Shown: positions 19,814 through 28,230 of the stretch, in pieces
Position numbering within the stretch: the stretch's first letter is position 1
How the letters are laid out: each line of letters opens with the position of its first letter
Virus record (IMG/VR): IMGVR_UViG_3300046170_000391
Reading direction: 5' to 3' (one strand)
DNA: 64,000 bases
Source of the DNA: a virus
Translations under genes and position numbers: made by a program
The notes under the pieces: model-generated
Database searches by the model: none
What the model was told of the DNA's origin: nothing
The model's input: only the letters and a program-made list of their open reading frames with translations

Positions 19814-20866
19814 GTGCCTTTATCAATCCCCAGTATTCCCCATAAATCAAGAATGAAGGCTCATAAACTTCAATACTTAAGAGCCATATCTGATTCTATG
19901 GATTATCCTTTTCAATCTGAAGATGGAAGAGATCCTTCTGCCTCACATCAAGAATTAACAGAAACTTGTGTTGAATATACTGACATACCTTACTGGCAGT
20001 TTACAAACTGTTGTACTGACTCACTACAAATCGCTTTTTCAATGTTGTGCAAAGTAGGAGATACAGTCATCGTACCTGCTTATGGTTGGAGAGCGGTAAC
20101 AAATGCTCCACAGTTTGTAGGTTTAAATGTTATATATTGTGATATTGATGAGACAGGTAACGTTAGTATTTCAGAGTTGCATCGTCTAATATATGAAAAT
20201 CAACCTGCTGCAATACTAATAATTCACAATTTCGGCACGGTAGTAGACGTATCAGAATTAACAGGTATTTGTGAAAAGTACGGTGTTAAAATTATTGAAG
20301 ACGCTGCCCAAGCATTTGTAATGAAAGAACCCTATGACTATAAAATTGGTTCTTGCGCTGACATAGTATGTTTTTCTTTTGATTTTACTAAATCTCCTGG
20401 TACCTTAGGTGCTGGAGGGGCAATAGCTACTTATAATCCAGATCATTTTACAAAAATTAAATCAATTTGTTCTCATATCACTAATGAGTTGGGAATTGGG
20501 ACAAAATCGTATTTAGATACTACTGCAGCAGCAGTGCTCAATTGTGATATAAAACTTATAGAGCAAATGCAGTATAGACAGCGTAGAGTCGAAGTTGCTA
20601 CTTACTATATAAACAAACTTCCTTATGAAACTCTGAGCGGAAAAAATTATATCTTTCATCGTTTTATAATTTTACCTGATAAAAGTGAAAAACAAGATCT
20701 AATTAACAAACTAAAGTCACAAAAAATTCTAGCTAAACCTGTATATAAACCTAATACAGATGCTTGTACTTATGCAAATAGATTCTACGAGAGTGCAATT
20801 GAGCTCCCTTGTCATCAGTTTATTGATGTAAATGACTTAAATTCAAGAATTGAAAAAATATTATGA
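19814..20866 (+). CDS. DegT-family aminotransferase
   Basis: GDTVIVPAY, IIEDAAQA, FSFDFTKSPGTLGAGGA, IELPCH. Confidence 0.9.
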   Translation: MPLSIPSIPHKSRMKAHKLQYLRAISDSMDYPFQSEDGRDPSASHQELTETCVEYTDIPYWQFTNCCTDSLQIAFSMLCKVGDTVIVPAYGWRAVTNAPQFVGLNVIYCDIDETGNVSISELHRLIYENQPAAILIIHNFGTVVDVSELTGICEKYGVKIIEDAAQAFVMKEPYDYKIGSCADIVCFSFDFTKSPGTLGAGGAIATYNPDHFTKIKSICSHITNELGIGTKSYLDTTAAAVLNCDIKLIEQMQYRQRRVEVATYYINKLPYETLSGKNYIFHRFIILPDKSEKQDLINKLKSQKILAKPVYKPNTDACTYANRFYESAIELPCHQFIDVNDLNSRIEKIL

Positions 20867-21795
20867 AGATACTAATAACAGGCGGAATGGGTTTTATTGG
20901 AGCACACTTAGTAGCAGAATTAGGACGCACTCATGACATAGATATTTTAGACGGTTTTGATGAAAACTACGTAGGCTACAAATATATACATAGAGGGACA
21001 AAAGGTTTACAAGAAACTAATGAGATTGAAAAACGTCATAGAAAACTAAATCTAAAGTATAGACTTGATTTAGTAAAAGGTAAATTCAATCAATACTATA
21101 GAAAATGGAGTTTTGAAGATATTCCAAGAGCAAATTATGATTTAGTACTTAACTTTGGGGCTTTATCAGAAGCTATCTTATCTCAACATTTTCCAAAATT
21201 TACTTCAGATTCTATAGTGCAAGGATTAAATCTAATTAAATTGTACCTTCCTAAGACACCTGTCTTACATATAAGTAGTAGCATGGTTTACGGCACTTGG
21301 GAAGGAGTAATTGACGAGCAGTACTCTTTAGGAGCTGTGGACCATTACGGGGACAGTAAAATAAAGGCAGAAACTATCTGCGGAGAGAATGACGTAATTT
21401 TGCGACCCATACATGTTTATGGTATGGGAGATGGTAAATTCTCAATCTGGATGAATATAGAAAGACAGATTGCAGCTGCAAAACCTGTTATGGTTGAGAG
21501 GGCAGGATGTATATACATAGACGATTTCGTTTTAGCAATCAAAAATATTTTAGACAGATGGCGTCCTGGCATTTATAATATTTCATACACATTCACTAGA
21601 AATGCTGAAGCATTAACTAATACTTATCCAGAAACTTTTGACGTTCAATATAAGTCAGGACCCACGGGTAAACCTAGAGGGCTGCTAGATAATAGCAAAC
21701 TAATAAATACATTTAATGTGAACTTTAAGTTTACAAATTATATAGATACTGTGAGAGACTATTATAGAACATATGAAAATTTTTGTAAGAAATAA
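20863..21795 (+). CDS. NAD-dependent epimerase/dehydratase (extended SDR)
   Basis: ITGGMGFIG, ISSSMVYG, YGDSK. Confidence 0.85.
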   Translation: MKILITGGMGFIGAHLVAELGRTHDIDILDGFDENYVGYKYIHRGTKGLQETNEIEKRHRKLNLKYRLDLVKGKFNQYYRKWSFEDIPRANYDLVLNFGALSEAILSQHFPKFTSDSIVQGLNLIKLYLPKTPVLHISSSMVYGTWEGVIDEQYSLGAVDHYGDSKIKAETICGENDVILRPIHVYGMGDGKFSIWMNIERQIAAAKPVMVERAGCIYIDDFVLAIKNILDRWRPGIYNISYTFTRNAEALTNTYPETFDVQYKSGPTGKPRGLLDNSKLINTFNVNFKFTNYIDTVRDYYRTYENFCKK

Positions 21796-22102
21796 TGATG
21801 TTGGAAAAGCACTTCGCATCTTAAAGAAAAAATTACACAATGAAGGTGTAATGAAAGAAGTAAGAGATAGACGTCATTTTATTTCAAAAGGCGAGCAAGA
21901 TCGTTTAGCTAAAAAAGCAGGGGTTAAACGTTGGCATAAAAAACGAGAAGAATTAGAGAAACAATTTATTCGTGAAGAACGAAATATGCTACGTAACAGC
22001 AGGAAAAATAAAAGAAATGTTCAAAGATCTAACAAAAGTTCAAATCAACAGCGAACGCAACGCTACTCTAGCGATAAGAATAAACGATCATCACGTTCAT
22101 AA
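21773..22102 (+). CDS. rpsU: Ribosomal protein bS21 with basic C-terminal extension
   Basis: VRNNDVGKALRILKKKLHNEGVMKEVRDRRHFISKGEQDRLAKKAGVKRW matches the bS21 pattern. Confidence 0.85.
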   Translation: MKIFVRNNDVGKALRILKKKLHNEGVMKEVRDRRHFISKGEQDRLAKKAGVKRWHKKREELEKQFIREERNMLRNSRKNKRNVQRSNKSSNQQRTQRYSSDKNKRSSRS

Positions 22103-22325
22103 TCTTGTGCTAAGTTTAGACAATTTTGCTTTCATTCTAAATAAGAATGTCAATTCATGGAAAGGTTTAATTCATAATAAAACATGGGAGTTCAGAAAAC
22201 TTTCTGATCGTGTTAAATTATATGATCAAAGCTATGAATATCATTACCGTTTCTCCCTTGAAGAATGGGAAACTATAAGACAACAATTTGCAGCAGCTTT
22301 ACTTGAAAGTAATCTTGCTAAGTAG
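22017..22325 (+). CDS. Hypothetical protein
   Basis: Likely start MFKDLTK; overlaps the bS21 tail by 86 nt. Confidence 0.5.
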   Translation: MFKDLTKVQINSERNATLAIRINDHHVHNLVLSLDNFAFILNKNVNSWKGLIHNKTWEFRKLSDRVKLYDQSYEYHYRFSLEEWETIRQQFAAALLESNLAK

Positions 22326-22344
22326 TTATTTACTTTTCTATAAT
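22315..22344 (+). promoter_or_regulatory. Promoter TTGCTA-N18-TATAAT
   Basis: Read directly upstream of 22368. Confidence 0.6.
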
Positions 22345-22367
22345 ACCTTATAAATATGGAGGTTTAT

Positions 22368-22616
22368 ATGAAAGCATACAAAGGTACGTTTAAAAAGAAA
22401 AATGGTGAATCACGTGATATGGTTTTTGCTAGACTATATGATTTACCGCAAAAGTTTCTTGACGAAAAAGTACAAGGAGCAGGTTCTGAGCAAAAATATC
22501 CAGAAGGTATGGAACTCGTTTGGGATCTAGAAGCAGATAACTTTAGAATTTTTAATTGGAAATCTGTAGATAACGACCCGAAAGAATTTGATATTGACGA
22601 AACTCTTTTTAGATAA
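22368..22616 (+). CDS. SH3/Sm-like beta-barrel phage protein (WYL_2/DUF2693-like)
   Basis: GTFKKKNGESRDM...VWDLEADNFRIFNW; GGAGG RBS. Confidence 0.6.
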   Translation: MKAYKGTFKKKNGESRDMVFARLYDLPQKFLDEKVQGAGSEQKYPEGMELVWDLEADNFRIFNWKSVDNDPKEFDIDETLFR

Positions 22617-22686
22617 TGAACCTTTTATTCTTGTAGAAACAGAAATTGTAAATTTTAAAGAGCTTAAAGCAGGTAATATTAACTTA

Positions 22687-22905
22687 ATGTACTACATTAT
22701 TGAAATACATAATACAGAAAATGATGAAATAGGAGTAGTGACAGAAGAGATAGATGGTGAACAGATTATCAAAAAATTTGATACCTGGTCTAAGGCAAAG
22801 GCTATGTCTGGAACACTAAATAGAGATACCCCTGAAAATCTCTCTACTCACATAGTAACCATTAATGAAACTGCTACAAAAGATAAAGAAGTGGATAACG
22901 ATTGA
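22687..22905 (+). CDS. Hypothetical protein
   Basis: Likely start MYYIIE. Confidence 0.45.
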   Translation: MYYIIEIHNTENDEIGVVTEEIDGEQIIKKFDTWSKAKAMSGTLNRDTPENLSTHIVTINETATKDKEVDND

Positions 22906-23239
22906 CCATTGTGTTGATCTTGTCGTTGATATATTGTTAATTGTATGGGAAGTTATCAGTAGTCCAATACTTATAGCTATGCGTCTTATAAGGCACTTTG
23001 TAGGTGAGTGGATAACAGATAAAATTAAAGCAGGAGTGCGTAAAATAGCACACTGGTTTGAGCATAAAAGAGAGTATAGATTAAAAAACGGATATGGAAT
23101 ATTTCGTACATATTGGTGGTTAATTATTTCAAGTCCTATAATTATATTTATCAGTATTTTTATTGTAGCTATACTGTCAGGATTACACGAAGGTTTAAAT
23201 ATAGCTTTCGAAGAAATTAGTGCTTCGTTTGAGGAGTAG
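22865..23239 (+). CDS. Hypothetical membrane protein
   Basis: Two hydrophobic segments; 3' end overlaps the tmRNA acceptor piece. Confidence 0.55.
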   Translation: MKLLQKIKKWITIDHCVDLVVDILLIVWEVISSPILIAMRLIRHFVGEWITDKIKAGVRKIAHWFEHKREYRLKNGYGIFRTYWWLIISSPIIIFISIFIVAILSGLHEGLNIAFEEISASFEE

Positions 23240-23716
23240 TATAATAGACGGACTGGACTCGGGGGCAGTACCCGACGGCTCCACCATAAACACAGGAATA
23301 ACACATGAAAGAATATATGTTAATAATCAGCATGTGGGGAAGTGATGGAAGCACAGAGCATTACATTGGTCAGATGGTTTTACAACAACCAATGAGTAAA
23401 TCTCAGTGTGAGTGGATGATTGAGGATGAACAGTGGGGTGCAAGTTTTGATAATGAGTATTACTTCTTTGCTAGACACTGTATGCCGAAAGATTGTGCTG
23501 GAAAAGATTCCTGTGACTAAACACTATTGGTGTGTTTATGATGGGGCCGAAATAGGATCGACAGACGTAATAAAAACAATGCCGAGAAGCAGGTGCGCAA
23601 GCGACCTCAACCGCAAGAAAACAAACAATTGCAAATGATAATTTCGCAATCGAGGACTACCGCATAGCGGCATAGTCTCACGGGGTATGGCTCCACCTAG
23701 CAACAGAACGGGCCTT
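23221..23716 (+). ncRNA. ssrA: Circularly permuted two-piece tmRNA (alphaproteobacterial type); outer ends approximate
   Basis: Acceptor piece ends ...TCGGGGGCAGTACCCGACGGCTCCACCA (23286); coding piece starts GGGGCCGAAATAGGATCGAC (23543); acceptor stem has G3.U70; tag 23631-23675 = ANDNFAIEDYRIAA*. Confidence 0.92.
23305..23520 (+). CDS. 71-aa hypothetical protein encoded inside the tmRNA intervening segment
   Basis: CAGGA RBS, ATG..TAA entirely within IVS 23287-23542; 4 Cys. Confidence 0.65.
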   Translation: MKEYMLIISMWGSDGSTEHYIGQMVLQQPMSKSQCEWMIEDEQWGASFDNEYYFFARHCMPKDCAGKDSCD

Positions 23717-23737
23717 TACAACTCTTATGAGGATTAA

Positions 23738-24880
23738 ATGTTTAATTTTAATACAACTCCACGTTTAGTAATCGGCGCAAATAGATTACAGTTCTTAGGC
23801 ACACTTCTTTCCGACCTTGGAATCAAAAACCCTTTAATAGTGACAGGTCCTAATCTTGCAAAATCTAAAATCATAACTGAGACACAAAAATGGTCTTGGA
23901 CTGATAATGTATTCTGTGATTTAGTACAGGATCCAACGACTCAGAATGTGTTAGACTGTGTTGAATATGGAATAAGTAAAGACGTAGATGGAGTTATTGG
24001 TATCGGGGGTGGATCATCTCTTGATGTAGCAAAAGTTGCTTCTGTGTTATTAAAACAGGAAACATCTTTAGAAAACATTTGGGGTGTAGACAATGTTTAT
24101 AGTTCAAGACTACCTTTAATTCTTATACCTACCACCTCGGGGTCAGGATCAGAAGTTACCCCAGTTTCAATTATTACAACAGGTGAGACAACAAAAATGG
24201 GAATTGTTTCTCACAGAATCATTCCAGATGCAGCAATTCTTGACCCTCTTCTTACAGTTTCTTGTAACCCTCAACTAACTGCATATAGCGCAATAGATGC
24301 GATGGTTCATGCTATCGAATCATACACTTCTATAAATCCCAATAACAATCCTTACTCAAAAATGCTTGCACTTGAAGCTTGTCGCTGGTTAGGTAAATCA
24401 ACAAAAACTGCCATCTTAGAGCCAAGTAATATCGAAGCAAGAGCTAATGTACAATATGGATCTATGTTGGCCGGGCAGGCATTTGGTAATTCGCCAGTAG
24501 CAGCAGTTCATGCATTAGCCTACCCACTAGGTGGGTACTTTAAACTGCCACATGGTTTAACAAATACTTTGGTTCTTCCTGGTGTTTTAGAGTATAATCA
24601 AGAAAATACAGACTATTCAACTCTTGCTACTGCTTTATTTCCTCATGATGAAGGAGAAATATACTACTATAAAGGTGATGTTGTTGAAGTAATGTGCAGA
24701 AATATCAAAGAATTAGCAGAGTTAGCAGGAATCGAAACTCGAATGAGTGATTATGGAATCAGTGCAGAGCATATTCCAATGTTAGCAGAAGAGGCAATGA
24801 AACAATCTAGGCTCTTGGTAAATAATCCGAGAGAAATTACAGAAGAAGTTGCAAAAGAAATTTACTGGGAAGTTCTATAA
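23738..24880 (+). CDS. Iron-containing alcohol dehydrogenase
   Basis: GIGGGSSLDVAK, IPTTSGSGSEVT, DAMVHAIESY, VHALAYPLGG..LPHG. Confidence 0.92.
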   Translation: MFNFNTTPRLVIGANRLQFLGTLLSDLGIKNPLIVTGPNLAKSKIITETQKWSWTDNVFCDLVQDPTTQNVLDCVEYGISKDVDGVIGIGGGSSLDVAKVASVLLKQETSLENIWGVDNVYSSRLPLILIPTTSGSGSEVTPVSIITTGETTKMGIVSHRIIPDAAILDPLLTVSCNPQLTAYSAIDAMVHAIESYTSINPNNNPYSKMLALEACRWLGKSTKTAILEPSNIEARANVQYGSMLAGQAFGNSPVAAVHALAYPLGGYFKLPHGLTNTLVLPGVLEYNQENTDYSTLATALFPHDEGEIYYYKGDVVEVMCRNIKELAELAGIETRMSDYGISAEHIPMLAEEAMKQSRLLVNNPREITEEVAKEIYWEVL

Positions 24881-25509
24881 TGTATAAAACTTATATTCTA
24901 GGGAATGGCGGATACGCTCAAGAATGCTTTGAACAATTTGTACTAGGCAGAGTTATAGAAGATTTCGGGGGATTTATTATCCTAAAAGAAGGTAAAGCAG
25001 TTCTTATTAACGATGAAGGTATAAATAATTTTACTTACCCTAAAGAATCTGCATTTATGCTAGGGACTGGGCACCGTAAGTGGCGTAAAGTATTTTTAGA
25101 TCATTTATTTGGTTATTATGAACAGAATATTAATCATTTTCCAAATATGATAGCTAATGAAGCACACTTATCACAAACTTCTACTCTAGGTATAGGTAAT
25201 GTACTTAATTGCTTTGCTATGACAAATGCTAATGCTAATATCGGAGATTTTAATCTTTTAAACTGTTATGCATCAGTTCATCATGACGTAACGATGGGAA
25301 GTCACAATATATTTACAACGTATGCTACCGTGCTAGGGTATTGTACAGTAGGAGATGATAACTGGTTTGGTAATGCAGTTACAGTAACATCAAAAACAAA
25401 TATCGGTAATGATAATACACTTAGTTCTGGCGAACATCTTTTTGAAGATATGAGCACTCGTCAATTCTTTAAACACGGTATTGTTACAGAGAAACCTATA
25501 AAACAATGA
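24880..25509 (+). CDS. Sugar O/N-acetyltransferase (NeuD/PglD-like hexapeptide repeat)
   Basis: ILGNGGYA N-domain, left-handed beta-helix repeats, SVHHD. Confidence 0.8.
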   Translation: MYKTYILGNGGYAQECFEQFVLGRVIEDFGGFIILKEGKAVLINDEGINNFTYPKESAFMLGTGHRKWRKVFLDHLFGYYEQNINHFPNMIANEAHLSQTSTLGIGNVLNCFAMTNANANIGDFNLLNCYASVHHDVTMGSHNIFTTYATVLGYCTVGDDNWFGNAVTVTSKTNIGNDNTLSSGEHLFEDMSTRQFFKHGIVTEKPIKQ

Positions 25510-26276
25510 TTATTTTTTTTAGAAGCTGTGAAGCAAACTTAAAAGCTGGATCTCTTGGAGACGAAGTTACGGGTGATGGTATTCGCTGGAATGGTAAACA
25601 TAAATTAGAAATTATTCGTAAATGTTATCTTTCAATTCAATCTAGCTTAGATGAGCGTGATTTAATCGTAGTAATTGATGATAGAACGACTAAAGATACC
25701 CTTAACTGGATGAGAGACAACACTAAAGCCCAATTTAGGGTACACCCCATTACCCCCTTACCTGAACTAAGAGCAAAAGATCCTTATCCTAATTATCATC
25801 CTGTTATGGCTAATTCATGTCCAGAAATCATGGAACATTTAGTGAGTGTTTCAGAAGAAAATCCTGATGAAATTATATACATCTGTGAGGACGATTATCT
25901 TCATCTACCTCAAGCAATACTTGCAATGAAAGCTTTATTTGGTCAAGGATATAGTGGGTTTTATGCCCCACAAGATTATCCTGATAGATATACCTTAGAC
26001 TCTAGTAGGGTATGTGAAGTACATGTGGGGCCTTATGGGCATCTAAGATCAATTCCAAGCTCAACACTTACTATCGCAGCAAAGGGCACTACTTGGCTTC
26101 AGTATAAGTATGAAATACTCAGAGCAGGAGCTTTTGCAGATGATACATGGACTTGGAAAGCTTTTAAACAAGTTGGCTGTCTATGTCCCCTACCAGGCCA
26201 CTCTACTCACCTACAAGAAGGGTGTATTAGCCCTTGTATAAACTGGGAACAAGTATATGAAGGCATTAGTTTATAA
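25506..26276 (+). CDS. GT-A fold glycosyltransferase-like protein
   Basis: VVIDD, IYICEDDYLH, CPLPGHSTH. Confidence 0.65.
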   Translation: MIIFFRSCEANLKAGSLGDEVTGDGIRWNGKHKLEIIRKCYLSIQSSLDERDLIVVIDDRTTKDTLNWMRDNTKAQFRVHPITPLPELRAKDPYPNYHPVMANSCPEIMEHLVSVSEENPDEIIYICEDDYLHLPQAILAMKALFGQGYSGFYAPQDYPDRYTLDSSRVCEVHVGPYGHLRSIPSSTLTIAAKGTTWLQYKYEILRAGAFADDTWTWKAFKQVGCLCPLPGHSTHLQEGCISPCINWEQVYEGISL

Positions 26277-26279
26277 TAT

Positions 26280-27260
26280 ATGAAATTTATACTTAGAAAA
26301 GACATAAAAATAGATCTTTTTGAGAGGCATCTTAGAAAGGCTAGAGCAAGTAATCAATTTTCTAATTACGGAGCTGCGGTACAAGACCTAGAATTAAAAG
26401 CTCGTGAAATGCTTAAAATTGATGATTCAAAAGCTATAATAGCTGTGAATAACGGCTCTTCATGTGTTACTACTATAGTATACGCTTTTCAGAGGGCTTT
26501 TGGTAATCATCTTAACGTGCTCACTCAAGATTTTACATTTCCCTCTAATGCACAAATCGGGGCAAGCGGCGCTCAAAAAACAGATTTTACAGACGCTTTA
26601 GATATACATTTGGACTTTCCTTATTGGGATCAAATAAAAATAGTAATTGTAACTAACATATTTGGTCACTTGCAAGACTTAAACATGATAATTAATAAAT
26701 GTAATGATTCAGATAAACTATTAATATTTGATAACGCGGCCACTCCATATTCTTTTTATGAAGGAACTAATTCGTGTAATTTAGGAACAGCTTCTTATAT
26801 TTCTCTTCACCATACTAAGCCTCTTGGTTTCGGAGAAGGAGGGTTAGTAATAATCAATAAAGAATACGAGAAAGAGGCTAGGGCAGTTATAAATTTCGGT
26901 CCGACCGAGGGCAATGAGTTTAATGAAAGAGGTAGCAATTTTAAAATGAGTGAGATTGCGGCAGCGGGAATTCTTCAGTGGTGGGATCAATTCGATATTG
27001 AAGACCTAAAAGAAAAATTCCTTAATAATTACTTTAAGAAACGTTATGAGTTAGCAAATCAAAAAGGTATTTTTTATCCAAATAAAGGAGATGATAACTT
27101 TTTTCCTTCATGTTTACCTTTTATCCACGATAATCCTACAGAAGCAAACAAAGACAATGAAGAATTTAAGTATTATAAGCCCTTAGTGGGTTTGCAAAAT
27201 TCTAAACTTGTGTATGAAAACATTATCTGTTATGGGCTAACTGAGGATTGGTATGTATAA
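26280..27260 (+). CDS. DegT-family aminotransferase
   Basis: VTNIFG, IFDNAAT, SLHHTKPLGFGEGG, NFKMSEIAAA. Confidence 0.88.
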   Translation: MKFILRKDIKIDLFERHLRKARASNQFSNYGAAVQDLELKAREMLKIDDSKAIIAVNNGSSCVTTIVYAFQRAFGNHLNVLTQDFTFPSNAQIGASGAQKTDFTDALDIHLDFPYWDQIKIVIVTNIFGHLQDLNMIINKCNDSDKLLIFDNAATPYSFYEGTNSCNLGTASYISLHHTKPLGFGEGGLVIINKEYEKEARAVINFGPTEGNEFNERGSNFKMSEIAAAGILQWWDQFDIEDLKEKFLNNYFKKRYELANQKGIFYPNKGDDNFFPSCLPFIHDNPTEANKDNEEFKYYKPLVGLQNSKLVYENIICYGLTEDWYV

Positions 27261-28230
27261 TAAATCAGCAGTAGTTACTGGATGTCTTAGCTTTATTGGG
27301 GTAGCGTTGACCGAAAAATTACTTCGCGAAGATTGGCAAGTATATGGTATAGATAAATTAACTTATGTAGCTAACACTAAATTAATTTCGTATTTTAAAA
27401 CAACTTACAAAGATAACTTTACTTTGGTCTCGGAAGATATTAAAGATGTTAAATGGCTACCTGCTTGTGATGTAGTTTTTAATATTGCAGCAGAATCAGA
27501 TGTTGATAATGGTAATAAAGATTGTTCTCAGTTTATTAGTTCAAATATTGAGGGTGTACGAAACTTACTAAGTCTTATTAATTCAAGAATTATTACTAAA
27601 GCAGATAAACCTTTATTTTTTCAAATGTCTACAGATGAAGTTTATGGAGATCTTGAAGAAGGAGTTTTTGACGAAAATGCACCTCTTAGACCATCTAATC
27701 CTTATGCCGCTACAAAAGCAAGTGCTGACCTACTTATCCAAAGCTGGGCACGTACTCACGGGTTAGAGTACCTTATAGCTAGACCTTCAAATAACTACGG
27801 ATACTATCAGTATCCAGAAAAATTAATTCCTTTAGCAGTAAAACAGTTATCAAGGGGTAAGAAAATAAAACTTCACAATGAAGGAAAACCTATTAGAAGT
27901 TGGACGCACTCAGAAGATACAGCAGAAGCAATCCTAACATTATATGACAACGCTGATAGAAATAAAGTTTATAATATTTCATCAGAATATGAGCAAACAA
28001 ATCTCGATACTGTTAAAAAAATCATAAACTCTTACTTTTTAGGAACTATAAGTAGAGAGGTGCCCAATTATACTAGTCATATAGATCTGGAGTACTCAAG
28101 GCCAGGGCAAGACGTGAGATATGCAATTTCTTGTAATCCTTTAAAAGAATTACAATGGAGACCTAAAAAAGAATTTAATCAAGAGATAGTAAAGTTAGTG
28201 GAAAATTATAAGAAAGGATGGACATGGTAA
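27253..28230 (+). CDS. rfbB: dTDP-glucose 4,6-dehydratase-like
   Basis: IDKLTY, AAESDVD, STDEVYG, PSNPYAATKA, NNYGYYQYPEKLIP, RPGQDVRYA. Confidence 0.85.
   Translation: MYNKSAVVTGCLSFIGVALTEKLLREDWQVYGIDKLTYVANTKLISYFKTTYKDNFTLVSEDIKDVKWLPACDVVFNIAAESDVDNGNKDCSQFISSNIEGVRNLLSLINSRIITKADKPLFFQMSTDEVYGDLEEGVFDENAPLRPSNPYAATKASADLLIQSWARTHGLEYLIARPSNNYGYYQYPEKLIPLAVKQLSRGKKIKLHNEGKPIRSWTHSEDTAEAILTLYDNADRNKVYNISSEYEQTNLDTVKKIINSYFLGTISREVPNYTSHIDLEYSRPGQDVRYAISCNPLKELQWRPKKEFNQEIVKLVENYKKGWTW

What the first reader, a model, noticed from the sequence alone, without database searches (positions are those of the whole stretch)
23221..23716. Protein-coding gene nested in the excised intervening segment of a two-piece tmRNA
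Seen: the IVS between the acceptor CCA (23286) and the coding-piece 5' G (23543) is 256 nt. It is clamped by a perfect 10-bp helix (CATAAACACA 23285-23294 with TGTGTTTATG 23531-23540, plus AATA/TATT) and holds a complete 71-aa ORF whose CAGGA RBS lies at the top of that helix. Established: permuted alphaproteobacterial tmRNA precursors are cut by RNase P and 3'-processing nucleases to discard a normally short non-coding IVS. Inference: tmRNA maturation releases or destroys an mRNA, which would tie expression of this protein to tmRNA processing. The IVS may also be a neutral cargo slot.
Basis: partly seen in the sequence, partly recalled or inferred. Interest (0 to 1): 0.72.

Follow-up and report, generated by a model that had tools for sequence, protein, structure and literature searches.

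The report
Small protein gene inside phage tmRNA spacer
A marine phage carries its ribosome-rescue RNA (tmRNA) as a two-piece gene, and the spacer that is cut out when the RNA matures holds a real, conserved 71-codon phage gene. A supposedly throw-away stretch of a stable RNA precursor therefore probably also serves as a messenger.

Summary
Rfam finds a full-length alpha-type permuted tmRNA at 23171-23717 (110.7 bits). The acceptor piece ends in CCA at 23286 and the coding piece starts at G23543. The 256-nt spacer (IVS) is closed by a 10-bp helix and holds a 71-codon ORF (23305-23520) with AGGA 7 nt before the ATG.

The ORF is a real gene:
- It has homologues at 53-77% identity and about 39 family representatives, all viral.
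- Synonymous sites are saturated (pS 0.66-0.95) while pN is 0.10-0.29.

The nested layout recurs in a near-identical contig (L040), in a Pacific virome fragment, and in a distant phage (L087, 53% identical protein). Eight other lineages of the family are free-standing. One sits just downstream of a tmRNA.

Other phage tmRNA spacers hold unrelated small ORFs. 114 bacterial tmRNA genes with the same acceptor motif have short, ORF-free spacers (median 28 nt).

My best reading is that the IVS is a length-tolerant slot, like a spacer between tRNA genes, that phages fill with small genes. Coupling of expression to tmRNA processing is plausible but untested. The protein's function is unknown.

This scan noted the same theme before on other DNA (111 notes, at least 93 genomes). 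I found no paper describing it.

The parts
23222..23286 (+). tmRNA acceptor piece (T-arm, 3' strand of the acceptor stem, encoded CCA at 23284-23286)
   Evidence: Rfam RF04321 and RF01849 alignments; sequence. The 5' end overlaps the last 18 nt of the upstream ORF 22865-23239.
23287..23542 (+). Intervening segment (IVS), 256 nt, absent from the mature two-piece tmRNA
   Evidence: It lies in the insert region between the two halves of the acceptor stem in both covariance-model alignments. Length compared with 58 unique viral IVSs.
23285..23294 (+). 5' arm of the clamp helix (includes CA of CCA)
   Evidence: Perfect 10-bp pairing with 23531-23540. Compensatory changes occur at the same positions across 45 viral IVSs.
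23531..23540 (+). 3' arm of the clamp helix; 2 unpaired nt (AT) follow before G23543
23294..23297 (+). Shine-Dalgarno AGGA, 7-nt spacer to the ATG, at the top of the clamp
   Evidence: Sequence. ORF-bearing IVSs in L087, L072, L078, L029, L002 and L041 have an SD at or inside the clamp top.
23305..23520 (+). 71-aa protein gene (uncharacterised viral family with two invariant Cys, C35 and C59; predicted beta-beta-alpha-beta fold)
   Evidence: Homologues; purifying selection; alignment A3; AF2 pLDDT 86.
23507..23514 (+). 8-nt stretch in the last codons of the ORF, perfectly complementary to ACAGGAAT (23292-23299); a possible anti-SD
   Evidence: MFE fold. Not conserved in L087, so it may be chance or lineage-specific.
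23543..23717 (+). tmRNA coding piece (5' strand of the acceptor stem GGGGCCG with G3-U, mRNA-like domain, 3' tail pairing with the acceptor piece)
   Evidence: Rfam RF01849 alignment to model end 355.
23631..23675 (+). Tag reading frame ANDNFAIEDYRIAA plus stop
   Evidence: translate; aligned to the consensus tag region
22865..23239 (+). Upstream 124-aa membrane-like ORF on the same strand, ending inside the 5' end of the tmRNA
   Evidence: Homologues lie near tmRNAs in L064, L005, L022, L084 and L012.
23738..24880 (+). Downstream Fe-dependent alcohol dehydrogenase-like gene on the same strand, 21 nt after the tmRNA; no terminator in between
   Evidence: Pfam PF00465 and PF25137. The terminator scan found none on the + strand.

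Best explanation
This is an intact phage-encoded alpha-type two-piece tmRNA gene whose intervening segment has been colonised by an ordinary small phage accessory gene. To the processing enzymes the IVS looks like a spacer between two tRNA genes, with a CCA 3' end on one side and an RNase P site on the other. A covarying clamp helix brings its two ends together, so the tRNA-like domain can fold whatever the loop length. That makes the IVS a safe slot in a gene-dense phage genome. The ORF is transcribed as part of the same, probably polycistronic, precursor and translated from its own SD. After RNase P cuts at G23543 the ORF remains as a 3' trailer on the acceptor piece until nucleases trim back to CCA. 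One RNA molecule is therefore either being translated or being folded and processed at any moment. The protein itself probably acts independently of tmRNA; I suggest a small host-directed accessory protein. Shown: the tmRNA, the IVS, the clamp covariation, the reality of the gene, the recurrence of the layout, and the phage-specificity of long ORF-bearing IVSs. Inferred: co-transcription, translation, the order of processing, and the protein's role.
For: The tmRNA is full length, with G3-U, an encoded CCA and a canonical tag. The gene is under purifying selection: pS 0.66-0.95 against pN 0.10-0.29, and dN/dS at most 0.21 where it can be computed. There are about 39 family representatives, and the nearest Atlas clusters are 100% viral. 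Eight lineages of the family are free-standing in arrays of overlapping small genes with no tmRNA. The window's gene is sister to a free-standing one (98/94 support). Only the CDS is shared, not its flanks. Other viral IVSs hold unrelated ORFs with an SD at the clamp top; 9 of the 10 unique IVSs of 139 nt or more hold one. L002 is syntenic with the window but carries an unrelated 62-aa ORF. That 62-aa family elsewhere lies between tRNA genes. The clamp covaries in 45 IVSs, with or without an ORF. In 114 bacterial tmRNA genes with the same acceptor motif the IVS median is 28 nt, the maximum 139 nt, and no ORF exceeds 15 codons. All neighbouring genes are on the same strand, with no terminator.
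Against: There are no transcript, ribosome or peptide data. The association of this family with tmRNA is more frequent than a purely random slot predicts. Of 11 lineages with known context, two are in an IVS and one lies 20 nt downstream of a tmRNA. The SD can be sequestered by the clamp or by an 8-bp anti-SD, which hints at regulation rather than neutrality. No convincing promoter for the unit was found.
Confidence: 0.65

Rival explanations
1. The coupling is adaptive. The clamp, or the anti-SD pairing, hides the SD in the folded precursor. The protein would then be made only from a particular processing state, before folding or after RNase P cleavage or partial trimming, so its amount and timing would track tmRNA maturation. 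The protein might itself act on trans-translation or on proteolysis of tagged proteins.
For: The SD sits at the top of the clamp here and inside it in L002, L084 and L041. ACAGGAAT and ATTCCTGT form an 8-bp pairing over the SD in the MFE fold. The codons supplying the complement (D-S-C-D) differ from the E-K-C-E type endings of homologues. The stop codon lies 10 nt before the 3' arm, so a terminating ribosome would melt the clamp. The family is linked to tmRNA in three lineages: window/L040, L087 and L099.
Against: Eight of 11 lineages have no tmRNA nearby. The anti-SD is not conserved in L087. Unrelated cargos occupy the same slot in other phages, so no specific protein-tmRNA link is needed. 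An SD next to a helix is also the most compact way to fit a gene into a loop.
Confidence: 0.22
2. The insertion disabled the tmRNA, leaving a decaying pseudogene around a functional small gene. Alternatively, the two pieces are made from separate promoters and no common precursor exists.
For: ARAGORN does not call the gene. Weak sigma-70-like matches occur inside the IVS at 23298-23327, 23427-23454 and 23513-23542.
Against: Both covariance models match end to end well above threshold. The acceptor stem, G3-U, T-arm, CCA and tag are intact. The tmRNA and IVS are 98-100% identical between the window and L040, while the flanking proteins fall to 56-79%. The clamp linking the IVS ends is kept at 10-14 bp in all ORF-bearing IVSs. 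Promoter-like hits are no more frequent than in shuffles (11 against 7.6 +/- 3.3). The TATGAT at 23537-23542 is part of the conserved clamp and sits too close to G23543 to produce a processable leader.
Confidence: 0.08
3. The ORF is a chance open frame or an RNA element, not a gene.
For: No Pfam, PHROG or cultured-phage match.
Against: Homologues at 53-77% identity with saturated synonymous sites. 0.2% of shuffles give such an ORF. A confident, consistent fold prediction. No Rfam match inside the IVS even at E up to 1.
Confidence: 0.02

Closest known systems
Circularly permuted (two-piece) tmRNA genes of Alphaproteobacteria (Rfam RF01849 and RF04321; Keiler et al. 2000 as cited in PMC3985003)
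   Same: The gene order is acceptor piece, IVS, coding piece. CCA is encoded, G3-U is present, and the tag is of the ANDNFA...AA type. The precursor is presumed to be cut by RNase P and a 3' tRNA-processing activity (PMC3985003).
   Different: Bacterial genes with the identical acceptor motif have an IVS with median 28 nt, maximum 139 nt and no ORF. Here the IVS is 256 nt and encodes a selected protein.
Phage-encoded two-piece tmRNAs of marine myophages (OM43 phage Melnitz, pelagimyophages; PMC9004378)
   Same: A marine phage carrying an alpha-type permuted ssrA, alongside other translation-related genes (here ribosomal protein S21).
   Different: That paper reports a glutamine riboswitch associated with ssrA and does not describe a protein gene in the IVS. 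This phage has a family-A DNA polymerase and is not a close relative of any cultured phage.
Unusual IVS contents listed in the 2025 tmRNA database paper (PMC11915505)
   Same: That paper recognises that the IVS of permuted tmRNA genes can carry foreign sequence: one tRNA-Ala gene and one repetitive element.
   Different: Those are single cases called unique, and neither is protein-coding. The text holds no occurrence of 'ORF', and only 79 phage tmRNAs were in the database.
Intervening sequence of Coxiella burnetii 23S rRNA with the S23p ORF (PMC4990558)
   Same: An ORF sits inside a stem-closed segment that is excised from a stable RNA precursor without religation.
   Different: It is an rRNA, not a tmRNA. 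That abstract says results suggest the protein is not made naturally. Here there is a good SD and clear purifying selection.
Small ORFs between tRNA genes in phage tRNA clusters (T4 tRNA region from my own knowledge; seen here in L231-L236)
   Same: A small gene is bounded by a CCA 3' end upstream and an RNase P site downstream and is co-transcribed with stable RNAs. The 62-aa cargo of the L002 and L084 IVSs is found in exactly such inter-tRNA spacers elsewhere.
   Different: Here the two flanking tRNA-like halves belong to one molecule and must pair with each other across the gene.

Membership tests
Permuted two-piece tmRNA (Rfam RF04321; alpha subtype RF01849) | Covariance-model score above the gathering threshold over the whole model | tested here: met
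   RF01849 110.7 bits (threshold 50), model positions 1-355. RF04321 95 bits (threshold 47), positions 1-213.
Permuted two-piece tmRNA (Rfam RF04321; alpha subtype RF01849) | Permuted order: the 3' half of the tRNA-like domain ending in CCA precedes the 5' half and the tag region | tested here: met
   CCA at 23284-23286, G1 at 23543, tag at 23631-23675.
Permuted two-piece tmRNA (Rfam RF04321; alpha subtype RF01849) | Seven-bp acceptor stem with a G3-U pair (alanine identity) and a T-arm | tested here: met
   GGGGCCG (23543-23549) pairs with CGGCTCC (23276-23282), and G23545 pairs with T23280. The T-arm is aligned.
Permuted two-piece tmRNA (Rfam RF04321; alpha subtype RF01849) | Tag reading frame starting at an Ala resume codon and ending in hydrophobic AA plus a stop | tested here: met
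   ANDNFAIEDYRIAA*.
Permuted two-piece tmRNA (Rfam RF04321; alpha subtype RF01849) | One precursor processed into two base-paired pieces; aminoacylation and trans-translation activity | not testable with these tools
   Only indirect support: the covarying clamp links the two IVS ends.
Unnamed viral small-protein family (about 70 aa, MWG...IGNQ...QC...NEYY...C pattern) | Significant sequence similarity over the full length, with conserved W11, G12, G22, C35, W44, N50 and C59 | tested here: met
   E 1.6e-36 to 7e-28 for the nearest homologues. 39 representatives at E up to 1e-3. Invariant and near-invariant columns in A3.
Homing-endonuclease or intron-type selfish insertion in a stable RNA gene | A nuclease domain (HNH, GIY-YIG, LAGLIDADG) or a self-splicing intron structure | tested here: inconclusive
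   No Pfam or PHROG family for the 71-aa protein. No Rfam intron match in the IVS at E up to 1. No fold match above noise. The absence of a hit does not exclude a novel nuclease, but 71 aa with a beta-beta-alpha-beta fold gives no support.

The most novel reading that the evidence does not exclude
The nested gene is not passive cargo. Folding of the tmRNA precursor (clamp plus anti-SD) gates its translation, so the protein is made only from a defined processing intermediate. The protein may also act on trans-translation or on the fate of tagged proteins, which would explain why this family has become linked to tmRNA genes in three separate lineages.
Probability: 0.15. Interest if true: 0.8.

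Novelty: new variant of a known kind. Interest (0 to 1): 0.6.

Why it matters
Stable RNA precursors are usually seen as non-coding, and their excised spacers as waste. Here a selected protein gene lies between the two halves of one tRNA-like domain that must pair across it. The same transcript must therefore serve as both mRNA and tmRNA precursor. This gives a compact natural system for asking how translation and RNase P or 3'-end processing compete on one molecule. It also matters for annotation. ARAGORN misses the tmRNA because of the long IVS. Gene callers either miss the small ORF or fuse it with tmRNA sequence, as in P0004. Finally, it shows that phages, but not the sampled bacteria, use this slot, which marks the tmRNA IVS as a place where small phage genes are gained and exchanged.

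Tried and rejected
- **Function of the protein:** Pfam, PHROGs, tblastn against 50,697 cultured phage records, Foldseek against PDB, VIA-align over 48,161 chains and the ESM Atlas gave no informative match. The best was Z 4.7, within noise. Function stays unknown.
- **Common origin of the two cargos:** I tested whether the 62-aa L002 cargo and the 71-aa window cargo are remote homologues. hhalign gave a probability of 5%, so I rejected this. A weak BLASTP similarity of the 62-aa ORF to the gene upstream of P0002 (E 1e-4 for a single comparison) is not convincing.
- **Remnant in L087:** I tested whether the 94-nt tail after the L087 ORF is left over from a neighbouring gene. tblastn found no match in any locus.
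- **Promoters:** Sigma-70-like and T4-late-like (TATAAATA) motifs are no more frequent than chance, and none is placed to drive the tmRNA. The best sigma-70-like site (22315-22344, 10 of 12) lies 0.9 kb upstream.
- **Segment identities:** Segment-wise global DNA identities between loci were inflated by gaps and are uninformative, except for L040.
- **Riboswitch:** A glutamine riboswitch like the one reported near the Melnitz ssrA did not appear in an Rfam search at E up to 1.
- **Whole genome:** None is held for this window.
- **Primary papers:** The original two-piece tmRNA papers (PMC16621, PMC516066) are not in the library.

Full report
**Observation.** The window region 23171-23717 (+) matches the Rfam alpha_tmRNA model end to end (110.7 bits, gathering score 50). 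It also matches the general permuted-tmRNA model (95 bits). ARAGORN does not report it, probably because of the long insert.

- The acceptor piece ends in an encoded CCA at 23284-23286.
- The coding piece begins at G23543.
- GGGGCCG (23543-23549) pairs with CGGCTCC (23276-23282) and includes the G3-U pair.
- The tag frame 23631-23675 reads ANDNFAIEDYRIAA*.
- The intervening segment (IVS) is therefore 23287-23542, 256 nt.
- Its ends form a perfect 10-bp helix (23285-23294 with 23531-23540), which the MFE and centroid folds recover.
- The IVS holds a complete 71-codon ORF (23305-23520), with AGGA at 23294-23297, 7 nt before the ATG.
- Only 44 of 20,000 shuffles of the IVS give a complete ORF this long.

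**Context.** The window is phage-like. It encodes a family-A DNA polymerase, a DnaB-type helicase, an NAD-dependent ligase, both ribonucleotide reductase subunits, a ribosomal protein S21 gene (21773-22102) and many sugar-modifying enzymes. No whole genome is held. No cultured phage is close. Only about 38 nt of the T-arm match roseophage and Rhodobacter phage records. All genes from 19814 onward are on the + strand. The upstream ORF ends 18 nt inside the tmRNA, and the downstream Fe-ADH-like gene starts 21 nt after it. No terminator-like site lies between them. The tmRNA probably lies inside a polycistronic transcript.

**The ORF is a real gene.** A search of 5.8 billion proteins found homologues of 71-73 aa at 77, 65 and 63% identity. 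A profile search found 39 representatives. The nearest ESM Atlas clusters are 100% viral. Nei-Gojobori comparisons give saturated synonymous differences (pS 0.66-0.95) against pN 0.10-0.29. dN/dS is 0.08-0.21 wherever dS can be computed, including the pair window versus L087, where both genes are IVS-resident. The alignment has two invariant cysteines (C35, C59) and conserved W11, G12, G22, W44 and N50. AlphaFold2 gives a confident beta-beta-alpha-beta model (pLDDT 86). No fold or family match rises above noise, and no cultured phage carries the gene. Its function is unknown.

**Where the family lives.** The nested layout recurs in three places:
- L040, a 27.8-kb IMG/VR contig colinear with the window. 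It has the same IVS with one synonymous change, while flanking proteins are only 56-99% identical.
- P0004, a Pacific virome gene call. It is the same locus with a frameshift that reads on into the tmRNA coding piece.
- L087, an 83.7-kb contig of a distant relative. Its RNR subunits are 43-52% identical to the window's, its tmRNA backbone is only about 60% identical, and the tmRNA lies in a different neighbourhood. Its 332-nt IVS holds a 53%-identical homologue behind the same clamp and a GGAG SD.

In L099 the sister of the L087 gene (66% identical) lies 20 nt downstream of a complete tmRNA. That tmRNA's own 120-nt IVS holds yet another small ORF.

Eight other lineages (P0001, P0002, P0003, P0005, P0007, P0008/P0016, P0013, P0014) sit in arrays of small, often overlapping phage genes, with no tmRNA detectable by Rfam. 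In the tree the window's gene is sister to the free-standing P0001 (98/94 support) and not to L087. Only the CDS is shared, not its flanks. IVS residence therefore arose, or was lost, more than once.

**The slot is general in phages but was not seen in the sampled bacteria.** Two pattern scans of IMG/VR gave 58 unique IVSs of 13-332 nt. Nine of the ten that are 139 nt or longer, and several of 118-122 nt, hold a + strand ORF with an SD at or inside the top of the clamp and a stop just before or inside the 3' arm. At least six unrelated peptide families are involved:
- 62 aa in L002 and L084
- 64 aa in L041
- 35-40 aa membrane-like in L072 and L078
- about 40 aa in L069, L077 and L009
- L029
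- L018

L002 is syntenic with the window (S21, then a homologue of the 22356 ORF, then the tmRNA). It has the most similar tmRNA after L040. Yet it carries the 62-aa cargo, which is unrelated to the 71-aa protein (hhalign probability 5%). That 62-aa family is large (86 clusters) and elsewhere lies between tRNA genes.

By contrast, 114 alphaproteobacterial genome loci with exactly the same acceptor motif have an IVS with median 28 nt and maximum 139 nt, and no ORF above 15 codons.

**The clamp.** Across 45 IVSs in the same register, the helix starting at the CA of CCA keeps 10-16 pairs, with many changes on both sides. Examples are TAAACACA / TGTGTTTA, AGAGTACTG / CAGTATTCT, AATGTACATT / AATGTACATT and AAGGATATA / TGTATCTTT. 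It is present with or without an ORF. It is thus a generic feature of these precursors and not something built for the gene. Because it joins the two ends of the IVS, its covariation is indirect evidence that both tmRNA pieces come from one transcript.

**Mechanism (inferred).** The literature I could read says the permuted precursor is probably processed by RNase P and a 3' tRNA-processing enzyme (PMC3985003). To those enzymes the IVS is equivalent to an inter-tRNA spacer. With the clamp holding the ends together, loop length is free, so the IVS tolerates insertion. I propose the following:
- The ORF is translated from the precursor, or from the acceptor piece still joined to the IVS after RNase P cleavage.
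- The 3' end of that intermediate is a 10-bp hairpin with a 2-nt overhang, which should slow 3' exonucleases.
- A ribosome terminating at 23518-23520, only 10 nt before the 3' arm, would open the clamp.
- Translation and processing therefore exclude each other on one molecule.

In this window the MFE fold also pairs ACAGGAAT (23292-23299, covering the SD) with ATTCCTGT (23507-23514, in the last codons). That could gate translation, but it is not conserved in L087.

**Comparison with what is known.** Phage two-piece tmRNAs are published (Melnitz and pelagimyophages, PMC9004378). The 2025 tmRNA database paper lists a tRNA gene and a repeat element inside IVSs as singular oddities. It has no occurrence of 'ORF', and its database held only 79 phage sequences (PMC11915505). 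Four full-text searches for an ORF or small protein in a tmRNA intervening segment found nothing. The nearest published analogue I found is the Coxiella 23S rRNA IVS with the S23p ORF, which its authors suggest is not naturally translated (PMC4990558). ORFs between phage tRNA genes are the closest functional analogue.

This scan has already noted the same theme on other DNA (111 notes in at least 93 genomes). I re-tested its central claims here independently.

**Verdict.** This is a real, conserved protein gene nested in the excised segment of an intact phage two-piece tmRNA. It is best read as use of a permissive slot. The recurrent linkage of this family to tmRNA leaves room for functional coupling.

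Noticed in passing
L099:83-721: Another phage contig has a complete two-piece tmRNA behind a near-consensus sigma-70 promoter (TTGACA, 17 nt, TATAAA, at 88-116). Its 120-nt IVS holds a 47-codon ORF that reads on into the coding piece. A homologue of the window's 71-aa gene lies 20 nt after the tmRNA.
   Followed up: partly
L231:700-1060, L232, L235, L225: The 62-aa protein that fills the tmRNA IVS in L002 and L084 is, in other marine phage contigs, flanked directly by tRNA genes. A tRNA 3' end lies about 16 nt before its ATG and a tRNA 5' end a few nt after its stop. This small gene habitually lives in stable-RNA spacers.
   Followed up: partly
window:21773-22102: A phage-encoded ribosomal protein S21 homologue (Pfam PF01165, E 5e-11) lies 1.1 kb upstream of the tmRNA. 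The same S21, small ORF, tmRNA order is seen in L002.
   Followed up: partly
window:23420-23638 and P0004: An out-of-frame ORF runs from the IVS into the tmRNA coding piece. A public virome gene call (P0004) is a frameshifted fusion of the real 71-aa gene with this frame. Gene callers mis-annotate the locus, and ARAGORN misses the tmRNA altogether.
   Followed up: yes
L102:339-810, L103, L104: Two paralogues of the 71-aa family (P0016-like and P0008) lie in tandem, so the family also expands by local duplication.
   Followed up: no
L071, L096, L036: In L071 and L096 the tmRNA acceptor-piece motif has no recognisable coding piece within 1.5 kb. In L036 about 1.2 kb separates the two pieces. These could be very long IVSs, orphan pieces or prophage attachment-site fragments.
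   Followed up: no
window:22865-23239; L064, L005, L022, L084, L012: The 124-aa membrane-like ORF that overlaps the 5' end of the tmRNA has homologues near tmRNA genes in five other viral contigs. The 143-aa gene after the L099 tmRNA recurs near tmRNAs in L069, L009, L031, L093, L084 and L078. Together these suggest a loosely conserved tmRNA neighbourhood.
   Followed up: no
window versus L040 (window 20863-28230): The stretch from 300 nt upstream of the acceptor piece through the tmRNA and IVS is 98-100% identical in DNA between the two contigs. The neighbouring proteins drop to 56-86% identity, for example the Fe-ADH-like protein at 79% and the 26280 ORF at 56%. This points to mosaic recombination around a conserved core.
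   Followed up: partly
window:5633-5717 (-): A tRNA-Asn (GTT) gene is the only tRNA ARAGORN finds in the window.
   Followed up: no
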